Assembly: GCA_038087875.1 (NCBI GenBank)
Contig: CM075987.1
Coordinates: 21,206,001-21,266,000, forward strand
Length of the DNA: 60,000 nucleotides
Origin: Malacoraja senta
Taxonomy: Eukaryota
Reading direction: 5' to 3'
Positions within the stretch are counted from its first letter, which is position 1; every line of letters starts with the position of its first letter. The notes under the pieces are model-generated. The model saw only the letters and a program-made list of their open reading frames with translations. It did not search any database and was not told where the DNA came from. Shown here piece after piece: positions 10,593 to 50,652 of this stretch. A program made the position numbers and the translations under genes.

Positions 10593-13500
10593 AGAAACAT
10601 AGAAAATAGGTGCAGGAGTAGGCCATTCGGCCTTTCGAGCCTGCACCGCCATTCAATATGATCATGGCTGATCATCCAACTCAGTATCCCGTACCTGCCT
10701 TCTCTCCATACCTCCTGATCCCTTTAGCCACAAGGGCTACATCTAACTCCCTCTTAAATATAGCCAATGAACTGGCCTCAACTACCTTCTGTGGCAGAGA
10801 GTTCCAGAGATTCACCACTCTCTGTGTGAAAAAAGTTTTTCTCATCTCGGTCCTAAAGGATTTCCCCTCTATCCTTAAGCTGTGACCCCTTGTCCTGGAC
10901 TTCCCCAACATCGGGAACAATCTTCCTGCACCTAACCTGTCCAACCCCTTAAGAATTTTGTAACTTTCTATAAGATTCCCCCTCAATCTCCTAAATTCTA
11001 GCGAGTACAAGCCGAGTCTATCCAGTCTTTCTTCATATGAAAGTCCTGACATCCCAGGAATCAGTCTGGTGAACCTTCTCTGCACTCCCTCTATGGCAAT
11101 AATGTCCTTCCTCAGATTTGGAGACCAAAACTGTACGCAATACTCCAGGTGTGGTCTCACCAAGACCCTGTACAACTGCAGTAGAACCTCCCTGCTCCTA
11201 TAATCAAATCCTTTTGCTATGAATGCTAACATACCATTCGCTTTCTTCACTGCCTGCTGCACCTGCATGCCTACTTTCAATGACTGGTGTACCATGACAC
11301 CCAGGTCTCGTTGCATCTCCCCTTTTCCTAATCGGCCACCATTTAGATAATAGTCTGCTTTCCTGTTTTTGCCACCAAAGTGGATAACCTCACATTTATC
11401 CACATTATACTGCATCTGCCATGCATTTGCCCACACACCCAGCCTATCCAAGTCACCTTGCAGCCTCCTAGCATCCTCCTCACAGCTAACACTGCCCCCC
11501 AGCTTAGTGTCATCCGCAAACTTGGAGATGTTGCATTCAATTCCCTCGTCCAAATCATTAATATATATTGTAAATAGCTGGGGTCCCAGCACTGAGCCTT
11601 GCGGTACCCCACTAGTCACTGCCTGCCATTCTGAAAAGGACCCGTTTACTCCTACTCTTTGCTTCCTGTTTGCCAGCCAGTTCTCTATCCACATCAATAC
11701 TGAACCCCCAATACCGTGTGCTTTAAGTTTGTATACTAATCTCTTATGTGGGACCTTGTCGAAAGCCTTCTGAAAGTCCAGATATAACACATCCACTGGT
11801 TCTCCCCTATCCACTCTACTAGTTACATCCTCGAAAAATTCTATACGATTCGTCAGACATGATTTACATTTCATAAATCCATGCTGACTTTGTCCAATGA
11901 TTTCACCACTTTTCAAATGTGCTGCTATCCCATCTTTAATAACTAACTCTTGCAGTTTCCCCACTACCGATGTTAGACTAACTGGTCTGTAATTCCCCGT
12001 TTTCTCTCTCCCTCCCTTTTTAAAAAGTGGGGTTACATTAGCTACCCTCCAATCCTCAGGAACTACTCCAGAATCTAAAGAGTTTTGAAAAATTATCACT
12101 AATGCATCCACTATTTCTGGAGCTACTTCCTTAAGTACTCTGGGATGCAGCCTATCTGGCCCTGGGGATTTATCGGCCTTTAATCCATTCAATTTACCTA
12201 ACACCACTTCCCGGCTCACCTGGATTTCACTCAGTTCCTCCATCTCCTTTGACCTGCGGTCACCTGCTATTTCCTTTTTTTTTTTGAATAATAGTTTTAT
12301 TGGAGGCAAATACATATCATATTGAAAACATTTCATGCATTTCATTTCTACATTACTAATATTATCAAACGTTATTCGTGTTGTCTCCAATAGTTTTTTT
12401 TAATTTTTTTAATATAGATAAAAAATAATAAAGTAGCAGAAAGAAAGAAAAGAAAAAAAAGACAAAGGAAAAAAAAAAGAGAGATAATAAAGAAGAATGG
12501 AATAACTTACTAAAAATACATCATTAGAGATATATTCGTACATTTCAAAGTATAACTTTTCATCTAATCCTTGGCTCGAGTTTTAGTCAGGTTCTCGTGT
12601 CGAACCAGTCTGACCCTTCAAATAATCAATAAATGGAGACCATGTTCTGATAAATAATTCTTGTTTGTCCATTAGGACAAGTCTAATTCTTTCCAAATGT
12701 AAGGTCTCCGACATTTCTAAGATCCACATTTTAATTGTGGGGGTTATAGGACCTTTCCAAAATTTTAGTATTCATTTTTTTCCAGTTAAAGTTTCTTTGA
12801 GTTGTTGTAAATGTTTGCTTTTGTTCTAATATTCCTAGTATTATTAATTTTGAATCGGGATCCAATTGAGTGTTGACAACTATAGATATTATTCTAAAAA
12901 TATTTGCCCAGAATTTTTTTAATTTTTATACAATTCGCAAATGTATGAGTTAAGTTGGCATCTAAATGCTGACATTTATCACAAATAGGGGAGATATGTG
13001 GGAAGATTCTATTTAGTTTTGTTTTAGAATAATGTAATCTATGAATTGTATTAGAGAGTGTCTGGCATTTAATGAACATTGATGTATGTGTTGTAAACTT
13101 TCTTCCCAAGTATCTTTCGTTATTGTTTGATTTAGTTCCTTTTCCCATGTTTGCCTATATAAGTCCATCGATGGTATCTCACTATCTAATAAAGTATTAT
13201 ATATGTGAGATATTAATTTTTCTGTATTAGGATGTTTATTCAAACAGTCATCAAGGATTTCTGAATCTCTAGTTCTAAAATTTTGAGTATTTGCTTTAAC
13301 ATAATCTCTAAGTTGTAGATATCTGAAAACATCATTTAAGTGGAGTCCATAAGTCTGTTGTAGCTCCTGAAATGAAAGAAATGTGCCTTTCTTATAAAGT
13401 TGTCCCATCATTTTAATTCCATAATTTTTCCATTGTATGAAACCTTTATCCAACCAAGAAGGTTTAAATAAAGGGTTATTCACAATGGGAAGAAAAAGTG

Positions 13501-33936: not shown

Positions 33937-34050
33937 AGAGGTTCTGATGAAGGATCTTCAACCTGAAACATTAACTCTCCACAGGTACTACCTGACCTGT
34001 TGACTGTTTCCAGCATTTTTGTTATATTTCAGATTTCTAGCATCTGGAGT
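33937..34050 (+). mobile_element. Penelope-type terminal-repeat fragment with hammerhead-like motif
   Basis: agaggtt-CTGATGA-aggatcttcaacct-GAAA-catt-aactct. Confidence 0.55.
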
Positions 34051-34148
34051 TTATGAAATTAATGCTAGTAAATCAGTGGGCATGCTGTTGGATGGAAATA
34101 TTTTTTTCTTTTTTAACGAACTTATAACTGTGATACTTGTACTTCTAG

Positions 34149-34238
34149 GTTGGAAGTGGAACCCTGGAGATCGACCATCATTTGCAGATGTCCATCGAGC
34201 ATTCGATACCATGTTTCAGGAGTCCAGCATTTCGGAAG
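34149..34238 (+). CDS. ABL1: ABL1 coding exon (exon 9 equivalent), kinase C-lobe and alphaI
   Basis: ttctag|GT TGG...GAA G|gtgagt; 90 nt; [29 protein letters not shown]. Confidence 0.97.
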
Positions 34239-35283
34239 GTGAGTGTTGGTTGTGCAGTACATACTGGGGCTCTTTGGCTGGCCCTGTATAAGCTATCGTG
34301 TCCTGAACTGCAAACAATACCCCCAGTTTTAAAGATGGATAAAATCCATATTTATCTATATTCATTTGCACTATATCTATTCATTTGCTGTAATAAATCA
34401 TGTCTTTGGAACCAGGTCGGTATTTTTTGAGAGACAATGAACCGCAGGTGATGGAATCTTGAACAAAACAGTGCTGCAGGAACTCAGCGAGTCAGGTAGC
34501 ATCTGTGAAGGGAAAGGATAGGCGACATTTCACGTCAGGATGGTTCTTCAGAACTTTGAGTTAGCAAGGAAGTGCATGGGTTTTCACCAGAAGCCTCCAA
34601 GCCTGCAGCCAATACTTGCAGGGACTCTGCCCGGTATTTGCGTGGATGACCTGAGAGTTTGCCAGTATTTGCTGCACTAAACTTTTGTGGCTAATGAGCT
34701 GACTTCGTCATTGTAAGTTCAATTTTGTAGATGAAATGTGGCCTGTAGGTCAAACGTCAGCCTGTAGGTCAAATGTTAAAGCACTAAATATCTTCCACTG
34801 TCCTAATTAATCTGTGGTAAATGTCTGGATGGATACTGGTCGAAACAGTGAGCTGATTGCTGATCATATGGATATAGCCACCCAACTGGCAACTGCACCT
34901 ATTGTCAACTGGCAATAGACAATAGGTGCAGGAGTAGGCCATTCGGCCCTTCGAGCCAGCCATTTAATGTGATCATGGCTGATCATCCCCAATCAGTACC
35001 CCGTTCCTGCCTTCTCCCCATATCCCCTGACTCCGCTATTTTTAAGAGCCCTATCTAGCTCTCTCTTGAAAGCATCCAGACAACCTGCCTCCACTGCCCT
35101 CTGAGGCAGTGAATTCCACAGACTCACAACTCTCTGTGAGAAAAAGTGTTTCCTCGTCTCCGTTCTAAATGGCTTACTCCTTATTCTTAAGTTGTGGTCC
35201 CTGGTTCTGGACTCCCCCAACATCGGGAACATGTTTCCTGCCTCTAGCGTGTCCAAACCCTTAACAATCTTATATGTTTCAAT

Positions 35284-35421
35284 CTTCTTCTTGCATATGG
35301 TGTGCACAGCCTAAAGTTGTAGGACAACTTGTTCTATTTGATCTTATTTGATTGTGCACGCCGGGTTGATTGCATTCGTCGAAACAGGGCGGACCACGTG
35401 AAGTTTGCAATCTTCCACCCC
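35284..35421 (-). mobile_element. 138-bp SINE-like element with a 5' HDV-like ribozyme and (AAG)n tail
   Basis: Perfect 12-bp TSD atatgtttcaat (35272-35283 and 35422-35433); starts GGGGTGG, ends gcaagaagaag. Confidence 0.85.
35368..35421 (-). ncRNA. Minimal HDV-like self-cleaving ribozyme fold (54 nt; one P3 mismatch in this copy)
   Basis: P1 GGGGTGG/CCGCCCT with G1-U wobble; P2 GATTGCA/TGCAATC; P3 AAC/GGT; L3 TTCACGT; short P4 around TTCG; J4/2 CGAA. Confidence 0.75.
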
Positions 35422-36232
35422 ATATGTTTCAATGAGGTCCCCTCTCATCCTTCTGAACTCCAGAGTGTACAAGCCCAGCCGCTCCATTCTCTCAGCATAT
35501 GACAGTCCCGCCATCCCGGGAATTATCCTTGTAAACCTACGCTGCACTCCCTCAATAGCAAGAATGTCCTTCCTCAAATTAGGGGACCAAAACTGCACAC
35601 AATACTCCAGGTGTGGTCTCACTAGGGCTCTGTACAACTGCAGAAGGACCTCGTTGCTCCTATATTCGACTCCTCTTGTTATAAAGGCCAACATGCCATT
35701 CGCTTTCTTCACTGCCTGCTGTACCTGCATGCTTACTTTCATAGACTGATGAACAAGGACCCCCAGATCCCGTTGTACTTCCCCTTTTCCCAACTTGACG
35801 CCATTTAGATAGTAATCTGCCTTCCTGTTTTTGCTACCAAAGTGGATAATCTCACATTTATCCGCATTAAACTGCCTGACAAGCTTCCACTGCATGTCAC
35901 CATCATTGGGCTTTTCCAAATAATTGTAAGTCTACAGGCTTGGGGAAGATTGAGTTTGCAATTTCTTTATGACTAAACACATTCACACAGTATTGGACAT
36001 ATGTTGACTTGGAGCTGAGGGTGGCTCAGTGCCGTGCAGAGTGGACCAGAGTGCGATTCTTTCCAACAGTCCGATCCGATAATAAAACAATTGCAGGTCA
36101 TGCCAGGTTCAGGTTGAGTGTTAATCTTGTACCCAACCTATCCTCTATCCTCCTTCATTCGTATTCTGAATTCTTCGCTTGAAACAGTGTTGACCAGCAA
36201 TATAACGGTAATCTTTGTCATGTGCTTTGCAG

Positions 36233-36403: not shown

Positions 36404-37411
36404 GTATGTTTCACATTGCACGAGGTGGGAGTAAGAAAGCAGGAAGTGGCGTGGAGGTTTGGAAGGTTGTTCATTGTAGGTGACCCCCCACATAATAGCA
36501 TTTGTGTAACAGAAATCCCCCCCATGTGATTCACAAATCATTCCAAAAATCATTCCATGAAATTTATGTAGGGAGATAAATCTAAATAAATACAAATATT
36601 TTTCGACTCCCATTTTGTGATGTGCAGATGGTGTGGCTTTGTGTGTTTGCAAGAACACAACTGCTTATAAGGTGGGAGTCACCAACATGAGGAGCAATTC
36701 ATTGCTGTGGGCCAACATGAATTTGTAGCTGAACTGAGTGGATTTGGATTTGTTTCAGAGCAGGCTCTTCAGAATAATCATGAGTCAGATTTGCAAACAA
36801 ATTTCCCTCTTCACCAACAACCTTCCCCTACCCCTACCGCACATACAGCGACCATAACGCATTATCCCTTTGCAGCGGTGATGCAACCAAGCCTTTAACA
36901 GACTTGTCCTTGCATTCTTTCAATTCTGTGGCATCTCAACTCCAACACAAACATGCATTCTCAGACCCCAACCCAAGTACGTGTATGCTCATTGCACAAA
37001 CCAGGCCCTCCCTCTTTCCCTGCCTCCACTAATGTCCCAACCACATGCCTGCATCTTCATCAACAGCACTGACTTGCCACCCCACCACAGACCTCCACCC
37101 CCAGACATGCCCAACACTATTATTAAAACTTATTATTAAGCCTGCTTTCCCAGTCACAGTGTAAGGAGCAGAATTAGGCCATTTGGTCCATTGAGTCTGC
37201 TCTGCCATTCGATCATGACTGATCTATTCTTCCCTCTTAACCCCATTCTCTTGCATTCTCACCATAACCTTTGACGTCTTCATAGCACTGAAGGCAATCT
37301 GATCCAGGCGATAATTTGTTGGAACAATTGGAATAGCACTTGCTGGTCCAGAGAGTTGAGATCTTGTGATGTGTTAGAAGTACACGTACTTATGTTTGCC
37401 TCTGCCTCCAG

Positions 37412-39162
37412 ATTCTGCGGACCATGAAATGGCCATTTCTCCAATGCTGCCACGGAGAGACAAAGACACAGATGGCACCTTGGACGATGATCGTTTACAG
37501 TCTTCCACCAAAGAGAAAGGCAAATCCAGTTCAATCTTCAGCTCTTTCATTAAGAAGAAGAAAAAGACTGCACCCACACCACCAAAGCGCAGTAGCTCAT
37601 TCCGCGACATGGACGGGCAGGTGGACAAAAAGGAAGCGGCAGAGGACATCAGCATAGTTACTAAAGATACTAACAATGGAACTTGTGTGAACAGCATGAT
37701 GCCTCCCGACACAATAGATCCTGGAAAATTTCAGCACTCGCTTAGCACTGGGCCACAAAGTACAAACAATGGAGCCGGAGGGGTTGCCAATGGCAGTTTC
37801 TTGGGAACAACAGGGTTCTTTCTGCATTCGAAGAAGTCCAGTACATTAGCTGCAGGCAAACCAGTTGGGAATGAAGAGGAACTGCTCTCAAATTCAAAGC
37901 GCTTCTTGAGATCTTGCTCTGCATCATCGATGCCTCCTGGAAACAAGGACACGGAGAGGAAAGCATTGACACTCCCTCGAGACCTCCAGTCTGCAGGGAA
38001 ACTGTCCGATCCTGCCGGGATCTTAAGTTGCGACAGGAATGAGAAGCCAGCCTTGCCTCGAAAGAGGACAAATGAAACTAAAGTGGACATTGCTCCTCGG
38101 ATAAGCCAAACTGCACCATCTCGACTACCGAAAAAGACTGACGAATTAAATGATGATGTTTTTAATAATGTGGAGTCCAGTCCGAGCTCAAGCCCACCGT
38201 CATCCACTCCAAAGATCGTCCGCAGGCAACCCACAGTCATTACATCAATCAGTCTCATCCCGAAGGACAAGGATGACGGTGGGAAGACTTGTGCCTTAAG
38301 TTCTGCTTCCCAACAGGACCATATCTCCTCTAGTGTTGCTGCTTGCACATCCAAACACAGCTCCACGTCGATCCTGGGCGGGGTGAAGCTGCTGAACGCA
38401 GATTCCAAGGTACGAAGGTTCAGGCAGCCTCCCGACCAGCTCCTGTCGGCCCCCGTAAGAGACCGGGGTAAATTGCAGAAATCTAAGCCAGCTCCTCCTC
38501 CGCCACCAGGTGTGAAATCTGTTCGACCGTCTCGAAGCCCGACCCACGAGACAACGGGCGAGACTTCTGTGAGCATCAAGCTCAAGCAGTCCACCCAGGG
38601 TGCCGACCCTGTGAACAGTGATGCTTCGAAGCCCGGTCACCCTGGGGATGTGGCGAAAAGACCTGCCCTCCATTCGGTAGCAAAGTCTCAATCATCCACG
38701 AAGACATCGACCCCCAACTCAACCGCATCCTCACTCTCTGCACAGTCTGCCCTAGCAAGCCCCAGTAGTGACCAGCAGTCCTCCGCAACCACAGCCTTCA
38801 TCCCGCTCATCTCCACCAGAGTGTCCTTACGCAAGACACGACAGCAGCCAGAGAGGATCACCAGTGCCAACATTACCAAGGACACCGTTTTACAGAGCAC
38901 CGAGGCGTTGCGGGTCGCCATTGGAAAGAACTCTGAGCAGATGGCCAGCCACAGTGCGGTGCTGGAGGCGGGCAAGAATCTATACACCTTCTGCGTTAGC
39001 TACGTTGACTCCATCCAGCAAATGCGCAATAAGTTTGCCTTTAGGGAGGCCATCAACAAGCTGGAGTGCAACTTACGGCAGTTACAGATCTGCTCAGCCA
39101 GTCAGGACTTCACAAAACTGCTCTCATCTGTGAAAGAAATCAGTGACATTGTCCAGAGGTAG
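37412..39162 (+). CDS. ABL1: ABL1 last coding exon (exon 11 equivalent): NLS, PxxP motifs, DNA-binding region, F-actin-binding domain, stop
   Basis: ctccag|AT TCT... to TAG at 39160-39162; IKKKKKTAPTPPKRSSSFR, TLPRDLQS, KPALPRKR, C-terminus LLSSVKEISDIVQR (ABL1-type). Confidence 0.97.
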
Positions 39163-44554: not shown

Positions 44555-45692
44555 ATAGAAACATAGAAAATAGGTGCAGGAGTATAGGCCATTCGGCCCT
44601 TCGAGCCTGCACCGCCATTCAATATGATCATGGCTGATCATCCAACTCAGTATCCTGTACCTACCTTCTCTCCATACCCCCTGATACCTTTAGCCACAAG
44701 GGCCACATCTAACTCCCTCTTAAATATAGCCAATGAACTGGCCTCAACTACATTCTGTGGCAGAGAGTTCCAGAGATTCACCACTCTGCGTGAAAAATGT
44801 TTTTCTCATCTCGGTCCTAAAAGATTTCCCCCTTATCCTTAAACTGTGACCCCTTGTTCTGGACTTCCCCAACATCGGGAACAATCTTCCTGCATCTAGC
44901 CTGTCCAACCCCTCAAGAATTTTGTAAGTTTCTATAAGATTCCCCCCTCAATCTTCTAAATTCTAGCGAGTACAAGCCAAGTCTATCCAGTCTTTCTTCA
45001 TATGAAAGTCCTGACATCCCAGGAATCAGTCTGGTGAACCTTCTCTGTACTCACTATGGCAAGAATGTCTTTCCTCAGATTAGGAGACCAAAACTGTATG
45101 CAATACTCCAGGTGTGGTCTCACCAAGACCCTGTACAACTGCAGTAGAACCTCCCTGCTCCTATACTCAAATCCTTTTGCTATGAATGCTAACATACCAT
45201 TCGCTTTCTTCACTGCCTGCTGCACCTGCATGCCTACTTTCAATGACTGGTGTACCATGACAACCAGGTCTCGTAGCATCTCCACTTTTCCTAATCGTCC
45301 ACCATTCAGATAAGTCTACTTTCCTGTTTTTGCTACCAAAGTGGATAACCTCACATTTATCCACATTATACTGCATCTGCCATGCATTTGCCCTCTCACC
45401 CAGCCTATCCAAGTCACCTTGCAGCCTCCTAGCATCCTCCTCACAGCTAACATTGCCCCCCAGCTTCGTGTCATCCGCAAACTTGGAGATGTTGCATTCA
45501 ATTCCCTCTTCCAAATCATTAATATATATTGTAAATAGCTGGGGTTCCAGCACTGAGCCTTGCGGTACCCCACTAGTCACTGCCTGCCATTCTGAAAAGG
45601 ACCCGTTTACTCCTACTCTTTGCTTCCTGTCTGCCAGCCAGTTCTCTATCCACATCAATACTGAACCCCCAATACCATGTGCTTTAAGTTTG
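44555..45692 (-). mobile_element. CR1 3' fragment, near-identical by eye to 10593-11730
   Basis: Same tail and RT segment (SGVPQGSVL, KFADDTKLGG) with a few frameshifts. Confidence 0.93.
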
Positions 45693-48343: not shown

Positions 48344-49221
48344 TCCTCAGAGACCTATTGGCTGATTGAGTATCAGCCAGGGTTCAATGAGTAGCTCTCC
48401 TGAGTCAGAAAGCTGCTCAAGTTTTGCTGAAGAAAACAATGCAAATGATGTGCTCAGTCTTTGTATTGAGTGGTATAGTACACTAATCAGGTGAGACATG
48501 TCATCTTACATGGATGTAAACTGCATTACACTATATTGAAGAAACTTACTGTCACTAAAAACTGATTGCATTTACAGTATTTTAATGGCCTGCGGGTGGT
48601 AAAGCATCCCATACAAAAACAAATTGTCCTCTCTTGCCATTCTTGAGTTAAAATTTATTACTTGGAATTGAAGCTAATGGACTGTTACAAACAGAGCAGC
48701 TAACTCAATCTCTGCTACAATTTTTGATCAGTAAATCGGAGCCAGAGAAAGTAAAGGATATTGTCCACCACTCCAGTGACTGTTCAAAAAATAAATCAAA
48801 CTTAATCAGGTAATATTCTAAACTACTCTGATCAACATGAAATTTCAAAGTCAGTCTTTCCCTAATTATAAACTTTTTTCCCCAACAACAGATGTTAGGC
48901 TAATTGATCTATAGTTTCCTGGTTTCACTCTGTCACTTTTTTTTAAACCACTAATTGCAAGATCAGGCCAGGGCTGGCTTTCCTGCAGTTAAAGACTCGC
49001 CTCCTGCCACCTAAGAGGTTTTCCACAATCTGCAGTTATAAGTTAGGATTTGCCTGGAGAAGTACACCTCCAACACCTCTCAAGAAGCCCAAAACTAACC
49101 TACACCTGCTCGCTTAATTTCCTCCTCCCTCCCCAACTGGCAACATGGCTGTAATGAGTACCATCTAAAATATATTAGCTTTACACACATATGCTACTCA
49201 AATCCATGCGCTCTACCACTG

Positions 49222-50652
49222 AACGTCTGGTGAAACCCCACATTACTGCCAGCCTCCCCTCATCGTTAGACCCCCTCCAGTTTGCCTATCGCCCCAACCG
49301 TTCTACAGAGGATGCCATCTCTACCACGCTGCACACAGTGCTAACGCATCTGGAAAAAAGAAACACATACGCCAGAATCCTGTACATTGACTTCAGCTTT
49401 GCGTTCAACACCATCATCCCACAGAGACTTGTGGAGAAACTAACCCTGCTGGGCCTCAACACCACCCTGTGTCACTGGATCTTGGACTTTCTGACAGAGA
49501 GACCACAGACAGTCCGTGTGGGCAAGAACACTTCAGGCTCGATCACGCTGAGCACCGGCTCCCCTCAAGGCTGTGTGCTCAGCCCGCTGTTGTTCACATT
49601 GCTCACACATGACTGCTGCCAGATTCAGGGACAATAAGATCATAAAATTCACGGATGACACAACAGTGGTGGGACTCATCAGCGGAGATGATGAATCAAT
49701 GTACAGGGAGGAAGTAAAACAACTAGTGGACTGGTGCGGCAAAAATAATCTTGAATTAAATGTCGACAAAACAAAGGAGATGGTTGTCGACTTCAGGAGG
49801 GCGCAGCCAAAGCATGCACCCCTTAACATCAGTGGCGCCACAGTGGAGAGAGTGGAGAGCATAAAGTTCCTCGGGGTGCAAATTACAGACAGCCTCACCT
49901 GGTCCAGAAACACCACTGGGACCGTAAAAAGGGCCCATCAGCGACTGCACTTCCTGAGGAAACTAAAACAGGCCTCACTCCCCACCAACATCCTCAGGAC
50001 TTTCTACAGGGGTACGGTGGAATCTGTACTCGCGTACTGTTTAAATACGTGGTACTCCACCTGCAACTGCTCGGACAGGGAGGCTCTGCAGAGGGTAGTG
50101 AGGGGAGCAGAGAAGATCATTGGCGTCTCCCTACCCTCGGTACAAGAACTGTTCCTGAGCCGCTGTCGGAAAAAAGCTCAGCGAATTGCTAAGGACAAAC
50201 TGCACCCCCTTCACATACACCTGGATCTCCTGCCATCAGGCAAGAGATATTGCAGCATCAAAGCCCGGACTACAAGACTGCTAAACAGCTTCCTGCCATA
50301 TGCTGTGAGGCTGCTAAACAGCCACTCCCTACTCAGTCACCTGATTCTGCGGCTTGGCACGGACACTATAATAACTGGCACTGGCCACTTCAATAACTGG
50401 CACTGGCCACTCAAATCAGCCACCCCGGACATGTTTATGATTGGTCTTACTGTATTTTAACGTTGTCTTTATCTATTTCTTAACTTTATACTGTTCCATC
50501 AGGGACTGGATTGTTTTTAGTGTTGTTATTATTTGTGAAATGTTTTAAACTTCATGTGCGATGCTCCAGTATTCCCTGGGAAACGTCTTTTCGTTTTGCA
50601 CTGCACAACTGTTGCTTGCAAGATGACAATAAAGGAATTGAATTGAATTGAA
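49222..50652 (+). mobile_element. Rex1/Babar-like LINE, 5'-truncated RT fragment with one frameshift
   Basis: [51 protein letters not shown]; tail gacaataaag followed by (GAATT)n. Confidence 0.92.

What the first reader, a model, noticed from the sequence alone, without database searches (positions are those of the whole stretch)
35284..35421. 138-bp ribozyme-headed SINE: the insertion starts exactly at G1 of a minimal HDV-like ribozyme
Seen: a 138-bp insert splits a CR1 ORF2 and is flanked by a perfect 12-bp TSD. Its minus strand reads GGGGTGG-AA-GATTGCA-AAC-TTCACGT-GGT-CCGCCCT-G-TTTCGA-CGAA-TGCAATC, which maps onto the HDV nested double pseudoknot: 7-bp P1 with G1-U wobble, 7-bp P2, P3, L3 UUCACGU, vestigial P4, and J4/2 CGAA with the putative catalytic C at 35378. 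The element's first base is the predicted cleavage-product 5' end. The rest forms a stem (GTGCACA/TGTGCAC) enclosing a hairpin (AAGTTGT-CCT-ACAACTT), then an AAGAAGAAG tail; no tRNA A/B boxes are visible. Established: HDV-like ribozymes process the 5' ends of R2, RTE and related LINE RNAs. Inference: a promoter-less non-autonomous retroelement that cuts itself out of host transcripts and is mobilised by a LINE, possibly RTE (RTE remnants occur at ~20400 and ~58240). This copy has an A-G mismatch in P3 at 35404 and may be crippled. It lies antisense to ABL1, so it would not cleave the ABL1 pre-mRNA.
Basis: partly seen in the sequence, partly recalled or inferred. Interest (0 to 1): 0.85.

Follow-up and report, generated by a model that had tools for sequence, protein, structure and literature searches.

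The report
Ribozyme-headed short retroelement, CPEB3/HDV type
This 138-base insert is one of over a thousand copies of a short mobile element whose first 54 bases have the fold of a self-cutting RNA of the hepatitis-delta/CPEB3 type; this known trick of some jumping genes appears here in a stripped-down form, though cutting itself was not tested.

Summary
A 138-nt element on the minus strand (35284-35421) splits a CR1-like ORF2 remnant and has a perfect 12-bp target-site duplication. It lies in an intron, antisense to an ABL-like gene.

The genome holds 1,032 exact copies of its 35-nt core. In 50 of 50 copies examined, similarity starts at the same first base, mostly next to a duplication, and ends in a variable (AAG)n tail.

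The first 54 nt map onto the HDV/CPEB3 double pseudoknot.

The same genome has at least 39 loci above Rfam's cut-off for the CPEB3 ribozyme. They include an RTE-like LINE and a second short element, both with G1 starts and (AAG)n tails. Across these families P1, P2 and P3 covary while the catalytic residues stay fixed. A model built without this family finds it at E = 1.7e-5.

Self-cleavage was not tested. Unstranded poly(A) RNA reads show no pile-up of ends at G1. No LINE sharing the element's own sequence was found.

The kind is known (NARTc, R2 SIDEs, bipartite RTE derivatives). The P4-less CPEB3-type head is a new variant.

The parts
35284..35421 (-). Whole 138-nt non-autonomous retroelement (my label: family A): 54-nt ribozyme head, 75-nt body, (AAG)3 tail
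   Evidence: 40 scored genomic matches at 97-100% identity; 37 of 40 cover positions 1-138.
35422..35433 (.). Target-site duplication ATTGAAACATAT (minus-strand reading), copy next to G1
   Evidence: The empty-site joint 35271->35422 is seen in reads.
35272..35283 (.). Target-site duplication, copy next to the (AAG)n tail
35368..35421 (-). HDV/CPEB3-like ribozyme core, nt 1-54; predicted cleavage immediately 5' of G1 (35421)
   Evidence: Model R1, built without family A: 28.6 bits, E = 1.7e-5, model positions 1-68 of 68. Covariation.
35415..35421 (-). P1 5' strand GGGGUGG (nt 1-7); G1 pairs with U36 as a wobble
   Evidence: Sequence. Pairs at columns 5, 6 and 7 carry compensatory changes across families.
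35386..35392 (-). P1 3' strand CCGCCCU (nt 30-36)
   Evidence: Sequence, helix 1 has 91.1% of cells paired.
35406..35412 (-). P2 5' strand GAUUGCA (nt 10-16)
   Evidence: helix 2: 6 of 7 pairs carry changes on both sides; 94.9% of cells paired.
35368..35374 (-). P2 3' strand UGCAAUC (nt 48-54)
35403..35405 (-). P3 5' strand AAC in this copy (nt 17-19). Most family copies read ACC, so A18 (35404) is a private mismatch.
   Evidence: C18 in 27 of 30 copies; 19 of 20; 35404 T>G in 96-99% of reads.
35393..35395 (-). P3 3' strand GGU (nt 27-29)
   Evidence: helix 3: 2 of 3 pairs compensatory.
35396..35402 (-). L3 UUCACGU (nt 20-26): U20 and G25 (metal-site wobble in CPEB3/HDV); C22 pairs with G37 as P1.1
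   Evidence: U20, U21, C22, C24 and U26 are invariant in 40 of 40 aligned sequences. L3 is identical to the Rfam CPEB3 consensus L3. Residue roles come from passages of PMC4836649.
35385..35385 (-). J1/4 G37, the P1.1 partner of C22
   Evidence: Invariant column.
35379..35384 (-). Vestigial P4: UUUCGA (nt 38-43), at most one U-A pair, in place of the 8-bp P4 of the LINE version
   Evidence: Alignment A1: a 24-column gap relative to families C to G.
35375..35378 (-). J4/2 CGAA (nt 44-47); putative catalytic C44 at 35378
   Evidence: C44 and A46 are invariant and A47 nearly so. Matches the CGAA of the Rfam CPEB3 consensus.
35302..35359 (-). 3' body: outer stem GTGCACA/TGTGCAC enclosing the hairpin AAGTTGT-CCT-ACAACTT; a possible reverse-transcriptase recognition structure (inferred)
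   Evidence: MFE fold.
35284..35292 (-). (AAG)3 microsatellite tail; its length varies between copies
   Evidence: The same kind of tail ends 4 of 4 3' ends of the RTE-like LINE examined.
34993..35931 (-). Host CR1-like ORF2 C-terminal remnant, split by the insert
   Evidence: ORFs 35344..35931(-) and 34993..35310(-).
37378..39162 (+). ABL-like last exon (ends ...KLLSSVKEISDIVQR). Together with the end of the kinase-domain exon at about 34004-34291(+), it places the element in an intron, antisense.
   Evidence: translations. Assignment to ABL rests on recalled motifs. ABL1 versus ABL2 was not tested.

Best explanation
The insert is a copy of a young, high-copy, non-coding retroelement (family A, 138 nt). 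Its first 54 nt are a P4-less self-cleaving ribozyme of the HDV-like class, CPEB3 subtype.

Proposed life cycle:
1. A copy is transcribed as part of a longer host transcript.
2. The ribozyme folds (P1, P1.1, P2, P3) and cuts just 5' of its own G1, so the RNA begins exactly at the element's first base.
3. The reverse transcriptase of an RTE-like LINE of the same genome, which has the same kind of ribozyme head and the same (AAG)n tail, primes on the (AAG)n 3' end at a nicked target and copies the RNA to its 5' end.
4. This gives full-length copies with 7-15 bp target-site duplications.

Shown here: the element's anatomy, copy number, uniform 5' ends, structural and covariation fit to the ribozyme class, and the existence of the LINE.

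Inferred: cleavage itself, dependence on read-through transcription, and the identity of the mobilising LINE.

The window copy carries a P3 mismatch (A18), lies antisense in an ABL-like intron, and is probably inert.
For: ANATOMY AND SPREAD
- 138-nt insert with a 12-bp TSD in a CR1-like ORF2 remnant. The empty site is seen in reads.
- 1,536 first-look candidates; 40 scored at 97-100% identity. 1,032 exact copies of the 35-nt core versus 0 for the control.
- 30 of 30 best copies and 20 of 20 unselected copies start at position 1 (within one base), with unrelated upstream flanks. TSDs abut position 1 in about 18 of the 20 unselected copies (14 by script, 4 by eye). Tail length varies.

RIBOZYME
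- RF00622 (CPEB3 ribozyme) finds 39 loci above its 35-bit cut-off in this genome, best 64.2 bits; 0 of 14 control genomes are over the cut-off.
- These loci include an RTE-like LINE (family C) and a second short TSD-flanked element with an (AAG)n tail and a vestigial P4 (family B, 36-44 bits).
- In a 40-sequence alignment of families A, B, C, D, E and G, 92.5% of cells pair in the P1/P2/P3/P4 scheme, against 39-48% when partners are slid. 17 of 25 pairs change on both sides. The covariation score is 0.447 against 0.04-0.10 slid, and 0 of 500 shuffles reach it.
- U20, C22, G37, C44 and A46 are invariant. G25, U36 and A47 are nearly so.
- These are the residues that passages of PMC4836649 name in CPEB3: the G1-U36 wobble, the U20-G25 wobble, a P1.1 of one G-C plus a U-U, and a 4-nt J4/2 with the catalytic C and two A.
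- A model built without family A finds the window element at E = 1.7e-5.
- P4-less HDV-like ribozymes exist in nature (passage of PMC10879173).

NOT A POL III SINE HEAD
- ARAGORN finds nothing. Rfam finds no tRNA, 7SL or 5S hit.

LINE PARTNER
- Locus L041 has the ribozyme, then 30 nt later a 934-aa ORF with Exo_endo_phos and RVT_1 domains.
- It has a ~220-nt 3' UTR, an (AAG)n tail, and TSDs abutting G1 and the tail. 4 of 4 family C 3' ends carry (AAG)3-4.
Against: - No cleavage assay was run.
- RNA reads (two oligo-dT, apparently unstranded runs of 'organism C', about 5% of each run read) list no place where many molecules begin or end.
- Reads running on past G1 into diverse flanks are as common as at the 3' end (5' end: X23 396, X24 279; 3' end: X23 313, X24 407). 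There is thus no sign of efficient cleavage of the bulk of transcribed copies. Antisense copies and unstable 5'-OH fragments could hide it.
- Rfam's own models do not reach family A. There is no HDV or CPEB3 hit at E <= 10 on the window copy, nor at E <= 1 on L002, a copy with C18.
- The nested MFE of the whole element is unremarkable (z = -0.68). Pseudoknots are not modelled there.
- P4 is reduced to at most one pair, and activity of this particular minimal form is unknown.
- No LINE shares family A's head sequence or its 3' 84 nt. The link to the RTE-like LINE therefore rests on ribozyme type, tail and TSDs only.
- The LINE's placement in the RTE clade rests on its architecture, not on a tree (one search was uninformative).
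- Covariation counts are between about 6 families, so independent events are far fewer than cells.
Confidence: 0.75

Rival explanations
1. The head is a true relic of an HDV-like ribozyme, but the uniform 5' end is set by transcription initiation at G1 from an internal promoter. That promoter could be Pol II, or dual-function like Pr77 of L1Tc/NARTc. The P4-less ribozyme would then be weak or inactive and not needed for propagation.
For: - No pile-up of RNA ends at G1 and many read-through reads.
- P4 is vestigial.
- Rfam models miss family A.
- In trypanosomes the same 77 nt act both as promoter and as ribozyme (abstract of PMC3383444 in the listing).
Against: - All catalytic and structural positions are kept, and P1, P2 and P3 are perfectly paired in the majority form of a family that made over 1,000 copies.
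- A second short family (B) independently keeps the same minimal ribozyme.
- No Pol III-type head is present.
- The 5' end coincides to the base with the predicted cleavage product in families A, B and C.
Confidence: 0.15
2. It is simply a short internally deleted derivative (a SIDE, or bipartite non-autonomous LINE) of a specific autonomous LINE whose 5' and 3' ends it still carries. That parent was missed here. The element would then be an ordinary, already catalogued RTE derivative rather than a separate lineage.
For: - This is how R2 SIDEs and RTE/Ingi bipartite elements arise (abstract of PMC3414825; section 23 of PMC5786205).
- Repeat libraries (Repbase, Dfam) could not be consulted.
Against: - Pattern searches for the family A head followed by anything other than the family A body gave 119 places. 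Nearly all are indel variants of A, with no recurrent foreign continuation.
- The family A 3' body preceded by non-A sequence gave 10 places. Nine are A variants and one is a possible truncation.
- A family A-type ribozyme with a long P4 gave 1 place, a small duplication.
- The tails of A and B show no similarity to the family C LINE.
Confidence: 0.08
3. The resemblance to an HDV-like ribozyme is chance in a GC-rich SINE head.
For: Nested MFE z-score of -0.68. No Rfam hit.
Against: - Independent model hit at E = 1.7e-5, aligned end to end from G1.
- 17 of 17 P1/P2/P3 pairs are formed in copies that carry C18 (sequence).
- Invariant catalytic positions and compensatory changes against Rfam-validated relatives in the same genome.
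Confidence: 0.02

Closest known systems
NARTc / L1Tc with the L1TcRz ribozyme (Trypanosoma cruzi)
   Same: A non-autonomous non-LTR element carries at its very 5' end the HDV-like ribozyme of its autonomous LINE partner. Cleavage frees the element RNA from co-transcripts (abstracts of PMC3383444 and PMC3185411 in the listing; passages of PMC8256844).
   Different: NARTc shares its first 77 nt with L1Tc (Ingi clade), and those 77 nt are also a promoter. Here the host is a vertebrate-type genome and the partner is RTE-like. The head has diverged in all three helices from the LINE's and has lost P4. No promoter function is known.
R2 SIDEs and R2/R1 hybrid SIDEs (Drosophila)
   Same: Short elements made of a 5' self-cleaving HDV-like ribozyme plus a 3' end recognised by a LINE reverse transcriptase, propagated by TPRT (abstract of PMC3414825).
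   Different: SIDEs are rare, are site-specific in rDNA, and are recognisably deletion derivatives of R2 and R1. Family A is dispersed, has over 1,000 copies, and no parent sequence was found.
Bipartite ORF-absent non-autonomous LINEs of the RTE clade (e.g. WALLSI3, RTESINE2)
   Same: Short RTE-dependent elements that keep the LINE's extreme 5' end. The presence of a 5' self-cleaving ribozyme in RTE is given as the likely reason (section 23 of PMC5786205).
   Different: Those are defined by sequence identity to both ends of a known RTE. That feature was tested here and not met for the LINE I found. The paper infers the ribozyme from Ruminski et al. 2011, which I could not read.
Mammalian CPEB3 ribozyme (Rfam RF00622)
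   Same: Same numbering and residues: G1-U36, L3 UUCACGU, CCCUGU, J4/2 CGAA followed by U, and a P1.1 of C22-G37 plus U-U (Rfam consensus; passages of PMC4836649). The LINE version in this genome scores 61-64 bits on the mammalian model.
   Different: CPEB3 is a single conserved intronic copy with an 8-bp-class P4 and no known mobility. Family A has no P4, has different P1/P2/P3 sequences, is repeated over 1,000 times, and does not reach the Rfam cut-off.
Minimal HDV-like ribozymes (drz-Mtgn-1; theta ribozymes of gut phages)
   Same: Natural HDV-like ribozymes that lack the P4 domain (passage of PMC10879173).
   Different: Those come from metagenomes and phages and sit next to tRNAs. The paper says that for minimal variants in general the origin and function remain to be determined. 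Here the minimal form heads a eukaryotic retroelement.
Other ribozyme-bearing short retroelements: Schistosoma SINE-like elements with hammerheads, and twister variants in S. mansoni non-LTR elements
   Same: A small self-cleaving ribozyme is used to process retroelement RNA (passage of PMC6765202; abstract of PMC8501958 in the listing).
   Different: A different ribozyme class. The schistosome SINE-like elements appear to be transcribed by Pol III.

Membership tests
HDV-like (drz) self-cleaving ribozymes, CPEB3 subtype | Nested double-pseudoknot topology: P1, P2 and P3 in the order P1-P2-P3-L3-P3'-P1'-(P4)-P2' | tested here: met
   7-bp P1, 7-bp P2 and 3-bp P3 (perfect in copies with C18) at the expected spacing. 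92.5% of cells paired against 39-48% slid; 17 of 25 pairs compensatory.
HDV-like (drz) self-cleaving ribozymes, CPEB3 subtype | G1-U wobble at the cleavage site, at the base of P1 | tested here: met
   G1 with U36. GU in 20 of the 28 cells with letters at column pair 1/36. Named for CPEB3 in PMC4836649.
HDV-like (drz) self-cleaving ribozymes, CPEB3 subtype | Catalytic cytosine opening a short J4/2 linker, followed by adenines | tested here: met
   C44-G45-A46-A47. C44 and A46 invariant in 40 of 40 sequences, A47 in at least 90%.
HDV-like (drz) self-cleaving ribozymes, CPEB3 subtype | L3 with U20 and G25 (metal-site wobble), and a C pairing with J1/4 to form P1.1 | tested here: met
   L3 is UUCACGU. 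U20, C22 and G37 are invariant and G25 is kept in at least 90%. P1.1 is C22-G37 plus U21-U38, as described for CPEB3.
HDV-like (drz) self-cleaving ribozymes, CPEB3 subtype | P4 helix | tested here: not met
   Only UUUCGA lies between J1/4 and J4/2. P4 is dispensable in natural minimal drzs (PMC10879173), so this does not exclude the class.
HDV-like (drz) self-cleaving ribozymes, CPEB3 subtype | Score at or above the Rfam gathering cut-off (RF00622 or other HDV-clan models) | tested here: not met
   No hit at E <= 10 on the window copy, nor at E <= 1 on L002, a copy with C18. Families B to G of the same genome do pass.
HDV-like (drz) self-cleaving ribozymes, CPEB3 subtype | Site-specific self-cleavage 5' of G1, dependent on divalent metal and on the catalytic C | not testable with these tools
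   Needs a transcription/cleavage assay. RNA reads gave no pile-up at G1, which does not decide the matter.
Canonical SINE (Pol III head derived from tRNA, 7SL or 5S) | Head homologous to a Pol III-transcribed small RNA with A and B boxes | tested here: not met
   ARAGORN finds 0 genes. Rfam at E <= 10 has no tRNA, 7SL or 5S hit. The element is SINE-like in size and behaviour only.
LINE-mobilised retroposon (TPRT product) | Dispersed copies with variable-length TSDs and a 3' simple-repeat tail of variable length | tested here: met
Bipartite non-autonomous LINE / SIDE of a given autonomous LINE | 5' and 3' ends identical or clearly homologous in sequence to those of the autonomous parent | tested here: not met
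   The 5' end has the same ribozyme type but different P1, P2 and P3 sequences and no P4. The 3' 84 nt have no similarity to the family C LINE or to any other locus held, beyond (AAG)n. No parent was found by pattern searches.
RTE clade (for the putative partner LINE, family C) | About 3.2 kb, a single ORF with an N-terminal AP-endonuclease and RT, no ORF1, short 3' UTR with a simple-repeat tail; RT grouping with RTE in a tree | tested here: inconclusive
   The architecture is met. The defining list itself is recalled. No tree was built, and the atlas search gave only generic RT/endonuclease clusters.

The most novel reading that the evidence does not exclude
This genome holds a living radiation of CPEB3-type ribozymes at the 5' ends of retroelements: an RTE-like LINE scoring 61-64 bits on the mammalian CPEB3 model, several further families, and two P4-less short parasites.

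The boldest reading not excluded has three parts:
- The single-copy 'mammalian' CPEB3 intronic ribozyme is a domesticated head of this retroelement lineage.
- Family A shows that an HDV-like core stripped to about 54 nt is enough, in a vertebrate cell, to define an RNA 5' end.
- Together with an (AAG)n 3' end, that core would sustain amplification to over 1,000 copies with no promoter of its own.

Whether the host is outside mammals was not established here.
Probability: 0.35. Interest if true: 0.8.

Novelty: new variant of a known kind. Interest (0 to 1): 0.62.

Why it matters
Ribozyme-processed LINEs and a few ribozyme-headed non-autonomous derivatives are known from insects and trypanosomes. 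If the cleavage is confirmed, this element would add three things.

- **A high-copy, recently active example in a vertebrate-type genome.** It would be a natural experiment on how little RNA a retroelement needs: a 54-nt cutter, a small 3' structure and a microsatellite tail.
- **A biological setting in a eukaryote for P4-less 'minimal' HDV-like ribozymes.** Passages of PMC10879173 describe the origin and function of these as undetermined.
- **A sequence-level bridge between the CPEB3 ribozyme and retrotransposon heads.** This would make the origin of the CPEB3 ribozyme testable by comparative genomics.

In practice, sense-oriented copies in genes would be potential transcript-cutting sites. 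Orientation bias in introns is therefore a cheap prediction to check. Genome annotators should also expect Rfam 'CPEB3 ribozyme' hits that are really repeat heads.

Tried and rejected
- **Rfam on the element** (again on L002, a copy with C18). No HDV or CPEB3 hit. The two hits (sR52, CRISPR-DR9) lie in the flanks or tail, are far below cut-off, and are discarded.
- **Nested MFE fold**. z = -0.68. Uninformative for a pseudoknot.
- **Earlier findings of this scan**. Nothing returned.
- **Search for the parent LINE.**
  - 3' body preceded by non-A sequence: 10 places, 9 of them A variants and one (L073) without an A head.
  - A-type ribozyme with a long P4: 1 place, a small duplication.
  - A head followed by a non-A body: 119 places, nearly all indel variants.
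  - blastn-short of the A and B tails against all loci held: only other SINE copies.
  - Rejected: a simple deletion derivative of LINE family C.
- **RTE remnants in the window.** Family C gives no blastn hit, and its tblastn hits are distant RT matches elsewhere. The ORFs around 20400 and 58240 were listed but not scanned against Pfam.
- **Sequencing runs**. No RNA holder listed. The two raw-read RNA runs came only by species label.
- **Clade of the LINE.** The protein atlas gave only generic RT/endonuclease clusters.
- **B-box idea.** GTTTCGAC resembles a Pol III B box (consensus recalled). It is rejected because family B has TTTCCAC at the same place and ARAGORN finds no tRNA.
- **Literature.** Ruminski et al. 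2011 is not held, and two CPEB3 papers did not contain the sequence. Searches for prior description returned nothing on CPEB3-type ribozymes heading vertebrate short elements. The terms used were 'HDV-like ribozyme'+SINE+retrotransposon, 'CPEB3 ribozyme'+non-autonomous, HDV-like+ribozyme+RTE+vertebrate+LINE, 'CPEB3 ribozyme'+retrotransposon+fish, +exapt, 'HDV-like ribozyme'+shark, +origin+mammals+LINE, and CPEB3+ribozyme+RTE. Subscription journals, Repbase and Dfam were not searchable.
Full report
**1. What is in the window**

Searches show a 138-nt insert (35284-35421). Read on the minus strand it runs GGGGTGG...GCAAGAAGAAG. It sits between two perfect copies of ATTGAAACATAT (35422-35433 and 35272-35283).

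The interrupted frame on the minus strand reads ...LEFRRMRGDLIETY | KIVKGLDTLEAGNMFP..., the C-terminal part of a CR1-like ORF2 remnant.

Reads from other copies of that host repeat join 35271 directly to 35422, skipping 150 = 138 + 12 bases (186 reads in X23, 215 in X24). This is the empty site.

On the plus strand, 34004-34291 encodes ...[27 protein letters not shown]. The ORF 37378-39162 ends ...KLLSSVKEISDIVQR. From recall, these are the end of the kinase domain and the last exon of an ABL-type kinase. ABL1 versus ABL2 was not tested.

**2. It is a repeat with a fixed 5' end**

A search of the window's own 1.94-Gb genome gave 1,536 first-look candidates. The 40 that were scored are 97-100% identical. 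37 of the 40 cover 1-138, one covers 1-137, and two cover 3-138 because of a mismatch at position 2.

In the 30 loci returned, every copy starts at the same base (27 GGGG, 1 GGAG, 2 GAGG). The upstream sequence is unrelated between copies. TSDs are visible, and the (AAG)n tail varies in length.

Those 30 loci are the best hits, so I also took an unselected sample: the first 20 genomic places that hold the exact 35-nt core (nt 20-54), which says nothing about nt 1-19.
- All 20 carry the 19-nt head.
- In none does similarity continue upstream of position 1.
- 17 have G at position 1.
- A TSD abuts position 1 in about 18 (14 found by script, 4 by eye). L106 and L109 are unclear.

The exact 35-nt core occurs 1,032 times (508 forward, 524 reverse), and the reversed control 0 times.

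**3. The head fits the HDV/CPEB3 ribozyme, and the fit is not chance**

The mapping, numbered from G1 (= 35421):

| Element | Positions | Sequence |
|---|---|---|
| P1 | 1-7 / 30-36 | GGGGUGG / CCGCCCU, with G1-U36 |
| J1/2 | 8-9 | AA |
| P2 | 10-16 / 48-54 | GAUUGCA / UGCAAUC |
| P3 | 17-19 / 27-29 | see below |
| L3 | 20-26 | UUCACGU |
| J1/4 | 37 | G |
| P4 vestige | 38-43 | UUUCGA |
| J4/2 | 44-47 | CGAA |

The window copy has A18, which gives an A-G mismatch in P3. 27 of 30 copies have C18, as do 19 of 20 unselected copies and 96-99% of reads in four runs (35404 T>G).

Rfam's own models do not reach the element, and the nested MFE is unremarkable. The decisive evidence came from the rest of the genome. 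RF00622, the mammalian CPEB3 ribozyme model, finds 60 listed matches there. 39 are above its 35-bit gathering score and the best reaches 64.2 bits. None of 14 control genomes is over the cut-off.

Inspection of 30 of these loci shows several families, labelled here B to G. All share this layout: GGGG.. - AA/AU - P2 - GCG - UUC(A/U)CGU - CGC - ..CCCU - G - P4 - CGAA/CUAA/CCAA - P2'.

The Rfam consensus printed reads GGGGGCCAcaGCAGAAGCGUUCACGUCGCGGCCCCUGUCAG...CUGCGAAUUCUGCU. Family A shares with it G1-G4, the whole of L3, CCCUGU, and CGAAU.

I aligned 40 sequences: 12 of family A, 12 of B, 9 of C, 2 of D, 3 of E and 2 of G. I then counted pairs for P1, P2, P3 and P4 written as a pseudoknot.
- 92.5% of 788 cells pair, against 39-48% when the 3' partners are slid by 1-3 columns.
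- 17 of 25 pairs show changes on both sides (2-6 when slid).
- The covariation score is 0.447, against 0.04-0.10 slid, and 0 of 500 shuffles reach it.
- Family A differs from the LINE family C by compensatory changes at P1 positions 5-7, at five of the seven P2 positions (11-15; across all families six of seven P2 pairs change on both sides), and at two of three P3 positions.

The single-stranded residues are fixed. U20, U21, C22, C24, U26, G37, C44 and A46 are invariant. G25, U36, U38 and A47 are kept in at least 90% of sequences.

Passages of the CPEB3 NMR paper (PMC4836649) name the same features: the G1-U36 wobble, the U20-G25 wobble that holds the catalytic metal, a P1.1 of one G-C and one U-U pair, and a 4-nt J4/2 with the catalytic C and two adenines. 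Family A has all of them at the same numbering.

One caveat applies. The sequences fall into about six families, so the number of independent compensatory events is far smaller than the cell counts.

As a test that does not use family A at all, I built a covariance model from the 28 non-A sequences, with P2, P3 and P4 nested. I searched the 60-kb window with it. The only significant hit is 35368-35421 on the minus strand at 28.6 bits, E = 1.7e-5. It is aligned from model position 1 to 68, that is, from G1 to the end of P2. The next hit scores 9.4 bits, E = 3.

**4. What is missing: P4**

Families C to G have a 4- to 8-bp P4. A and B have only UUUCGA or UUUCCA there.

Natural HDV-like ribozymes without P4 are on record ('minimal drzs ... 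lack the P4 domain', a passage of PMC10879173). The loss therefore does not exclude activity, but activity of this form is untested.

Family B, which has the same vestige, still passes Rfam's cut-off (36.3 bits for L060; 35-44 bits).

**5. The relatives in the genome**

*Family C* is a LINE. In L041 the ribozyme ends 30 nt before a 934-aa ORF with Exo_endo_phos (2.3e-8), Exo_endo_phos_2 (1.5e-8) and RVT_1 (3.1e-32) domains. A ~220-nt 3' UTR and an (AAG)n tail follow.
- L043 has the TSD ACCTTAGTAAT abutting both G1 and the tail. L041 has ACAGAACAAAA.
- 4 of 4 family C 3' ends examined carry (AAG)3-4.
- A single ORF with an N-terminal endonuclease, a length of about 3.1 kb and a microsatellite tail make up the RTE architecture. 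That attribution is recalled knowledge. No tree was built, and one search did not help.

*Family B* is a second short element of about 170 nt. It has TSDs abutting GGGG and an (AAG)n tail. It is older: only 10 exact copies of its 35-nt core remain.

A LINE and two short elements thus share three features: a CPEB3-type head that starts at G1, TSDs, and an (AAG)n tail.

**6. What I could not find**

No LINE carries family A's own head or body.
- The A body preceded by non-A sequence gave 10 places. Nine are A variants with internal deletions and one has no A head.
- An A-type ribozyme with a long P4 gave one place, a small duplication.
- The A head followed by something other than the A body gave 119 places. 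Nearly all are indel variants, including a recurrent 17-nt-deletion subfamily that makes up about 20 of the 100 listed.
- The A and B tails match nothing in the family C LINE or the other loci held, beyond other copies of themselves.

Family A is therefore not a simple internal-deletion derivative of the LINE I found. The link to that LINE is by ribozyme type, tail and TSD only.

**7. RNA evidence**

No run is on record as an RNA holder. Two raw-read oligo-dT RNA runs of 'organism C', found by species label, and contigs of two other coded organisms were laid on 35234-35471.
- The element is present in all four runs, at 90-99% likeness. The family is therefore shared by several organisms.
- The two mate orientations have equal depth, so the libraries behave as unstranded.
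- The table of places where many molecules begin or end is empty.
- Reads that run on past G1 into diverse flanks number 396 (X23) and 279 (X24). At the 3' end the counts are 313 and 407.

There is thus no sign that most transcribed copies are cut at G1. This is weak evidence against efficient cleavage. It is not decisive, because half of the copies should be antisense, cleaved 5'-OH fragments may be unstable or poorly captured, and only about 5% of each run was read.

Variation of 10% or more within the core is confined to five positions: A8 (J1/2), A18/C18, nt 41-42 (the P4 vestige), and G45 (CGAA to CUAA, the J4/2 also seen in family D). P1, P2, L3 and C44 show none.

**8. Comparison with what is known**

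Ribozyme-headed non-autonomous non-LTR elements are in print:
- NARTc with L1TcRz in T. cruzi (abstracts seen; passages).
- R2 SIDEs and R2/R1 SIDEs in Drosophila (abstract).
- Bipartite ORF-absent non-autonomous LINEs of RTE, Ingi, Vingi and R2. For these, Kojima (PMC5786205; section 23 read) links retention of the LINE 5' end to the 5' ribozyme predicted in RTE by Ruminski et al. 2011. I could not read that paper.

The following points were not found in eight literature searches (subscription journals, Repbase and Dfam were not covered):
- a CPEB3-type ribozyme at retroelement heads in a vertebrate-type genome;
- a P4-less version serving as the head of a short element with over 1,000 copies;
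- the 61-64-bit match between a LINE head and the 'mammalian' CPEB3 model.

**9. Verdict**

The head belongs structurally to the HDV-like class, CPEB3 subtype, lacking P4 and below Rfam's cut-off (confidence about 0.9).

That self-cleavage defines the 5' end and that an RTE-like LINE mobilises the element is the best-supported mechanism. Overall confidence in the whole statement is 0.75.

It is a new variant of a known kind, and interest is moderate to high. The window copy itself is a P3 mutant lying antisense in an intron, and is most likely inert.

Noticed in passing
Own genome, loci L031-L064 (e.g. L041 = G000:C1:217550300-217559300): RF00622 (the mammalian CPEB3 ribozyme model) has 39 hits above cut-off in this genome, up to 64.2 bits. 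They fall into several families (my labels C to G) with P4 stems of different length. Family C heads an RTE-like LINE with an intact 934-aa ORF in L041. This may bear on where the CPEB3 ribozyme came from.
   Followed up: partly
L045-L050, L057-L060, L015, L026: A second short ribozyme-headed element (family B, about 170 nt). It has TSDs, an (AAG)n tail, a vestigial P4 and J4/2 CCAA. Only 10 exact copies of its 35-nt core remain, so it is older than family A. Copies differ in having CCC or CCCC in the P1 3' strand, which shifts whether G1 pairs with U or C.
   Followed up: partly
Genome-wide; e.g. L078, L081, L095, L097: A recurrent subfamily of family A lacks 17 nt just after P2 (...TGCAATC directly followed by AAATAAGATC...). 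It makes up about 20 of the 100 places listed. The major, older A subfamily has G8 and ...CATACGCAAG. The window copy belongs to a younger A8 / ...CATATGCAAG subfamily.
   Followed up: partly
window 35377 (nt 45 of the element), seen in reads: A variant with J4/2 CUAA instead of CGAA makes up 10-17% of RNA reads and about half of the contig depth in the coded organisms A and B. It is linked to a different spacer after P2 (loose end at 35345). Family D also has CUAA.
   Followed up: no
L033:1670-1796: A near-perfect ~127-nt inverted repeat about 100 nt upstream of the 5' end of a family C LINE hits several miRNA-precursor models on both strands, all below their cut-offs (best 70.8 bits against a gathering score of 90). 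It looks like a hairpin-forming repeat (MITE-like) rather than a miRNA gene.
   Followed up: no
window 34004-34291 (+) and 37378-39162 (+): Exons of an ABL-type tyrosine kinase: the end of the kinase domain, and the long last exon ending ...KLLSSVKEISDIVQR. The (AAG)3 run at 37552-37560 lies inside this exon and is coding, not a retroelement tail.
   Followed up: partly
window 11233-12192, 45314-45637, 49221-49613: Distant reverse-transcriptase similarities (26-32% identity) to the family C LINE ORF. These are other LINE remnants of a different clade.
   Followed up: no
L044:68-3859 (+): A 1,263-aa ORF with Exo_endo_phos and RVT_1 domains, belonging to another LINE family. It lies in the region downstream of a family D ribozyme head and on the opposite strand to it.
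   Followed up: no
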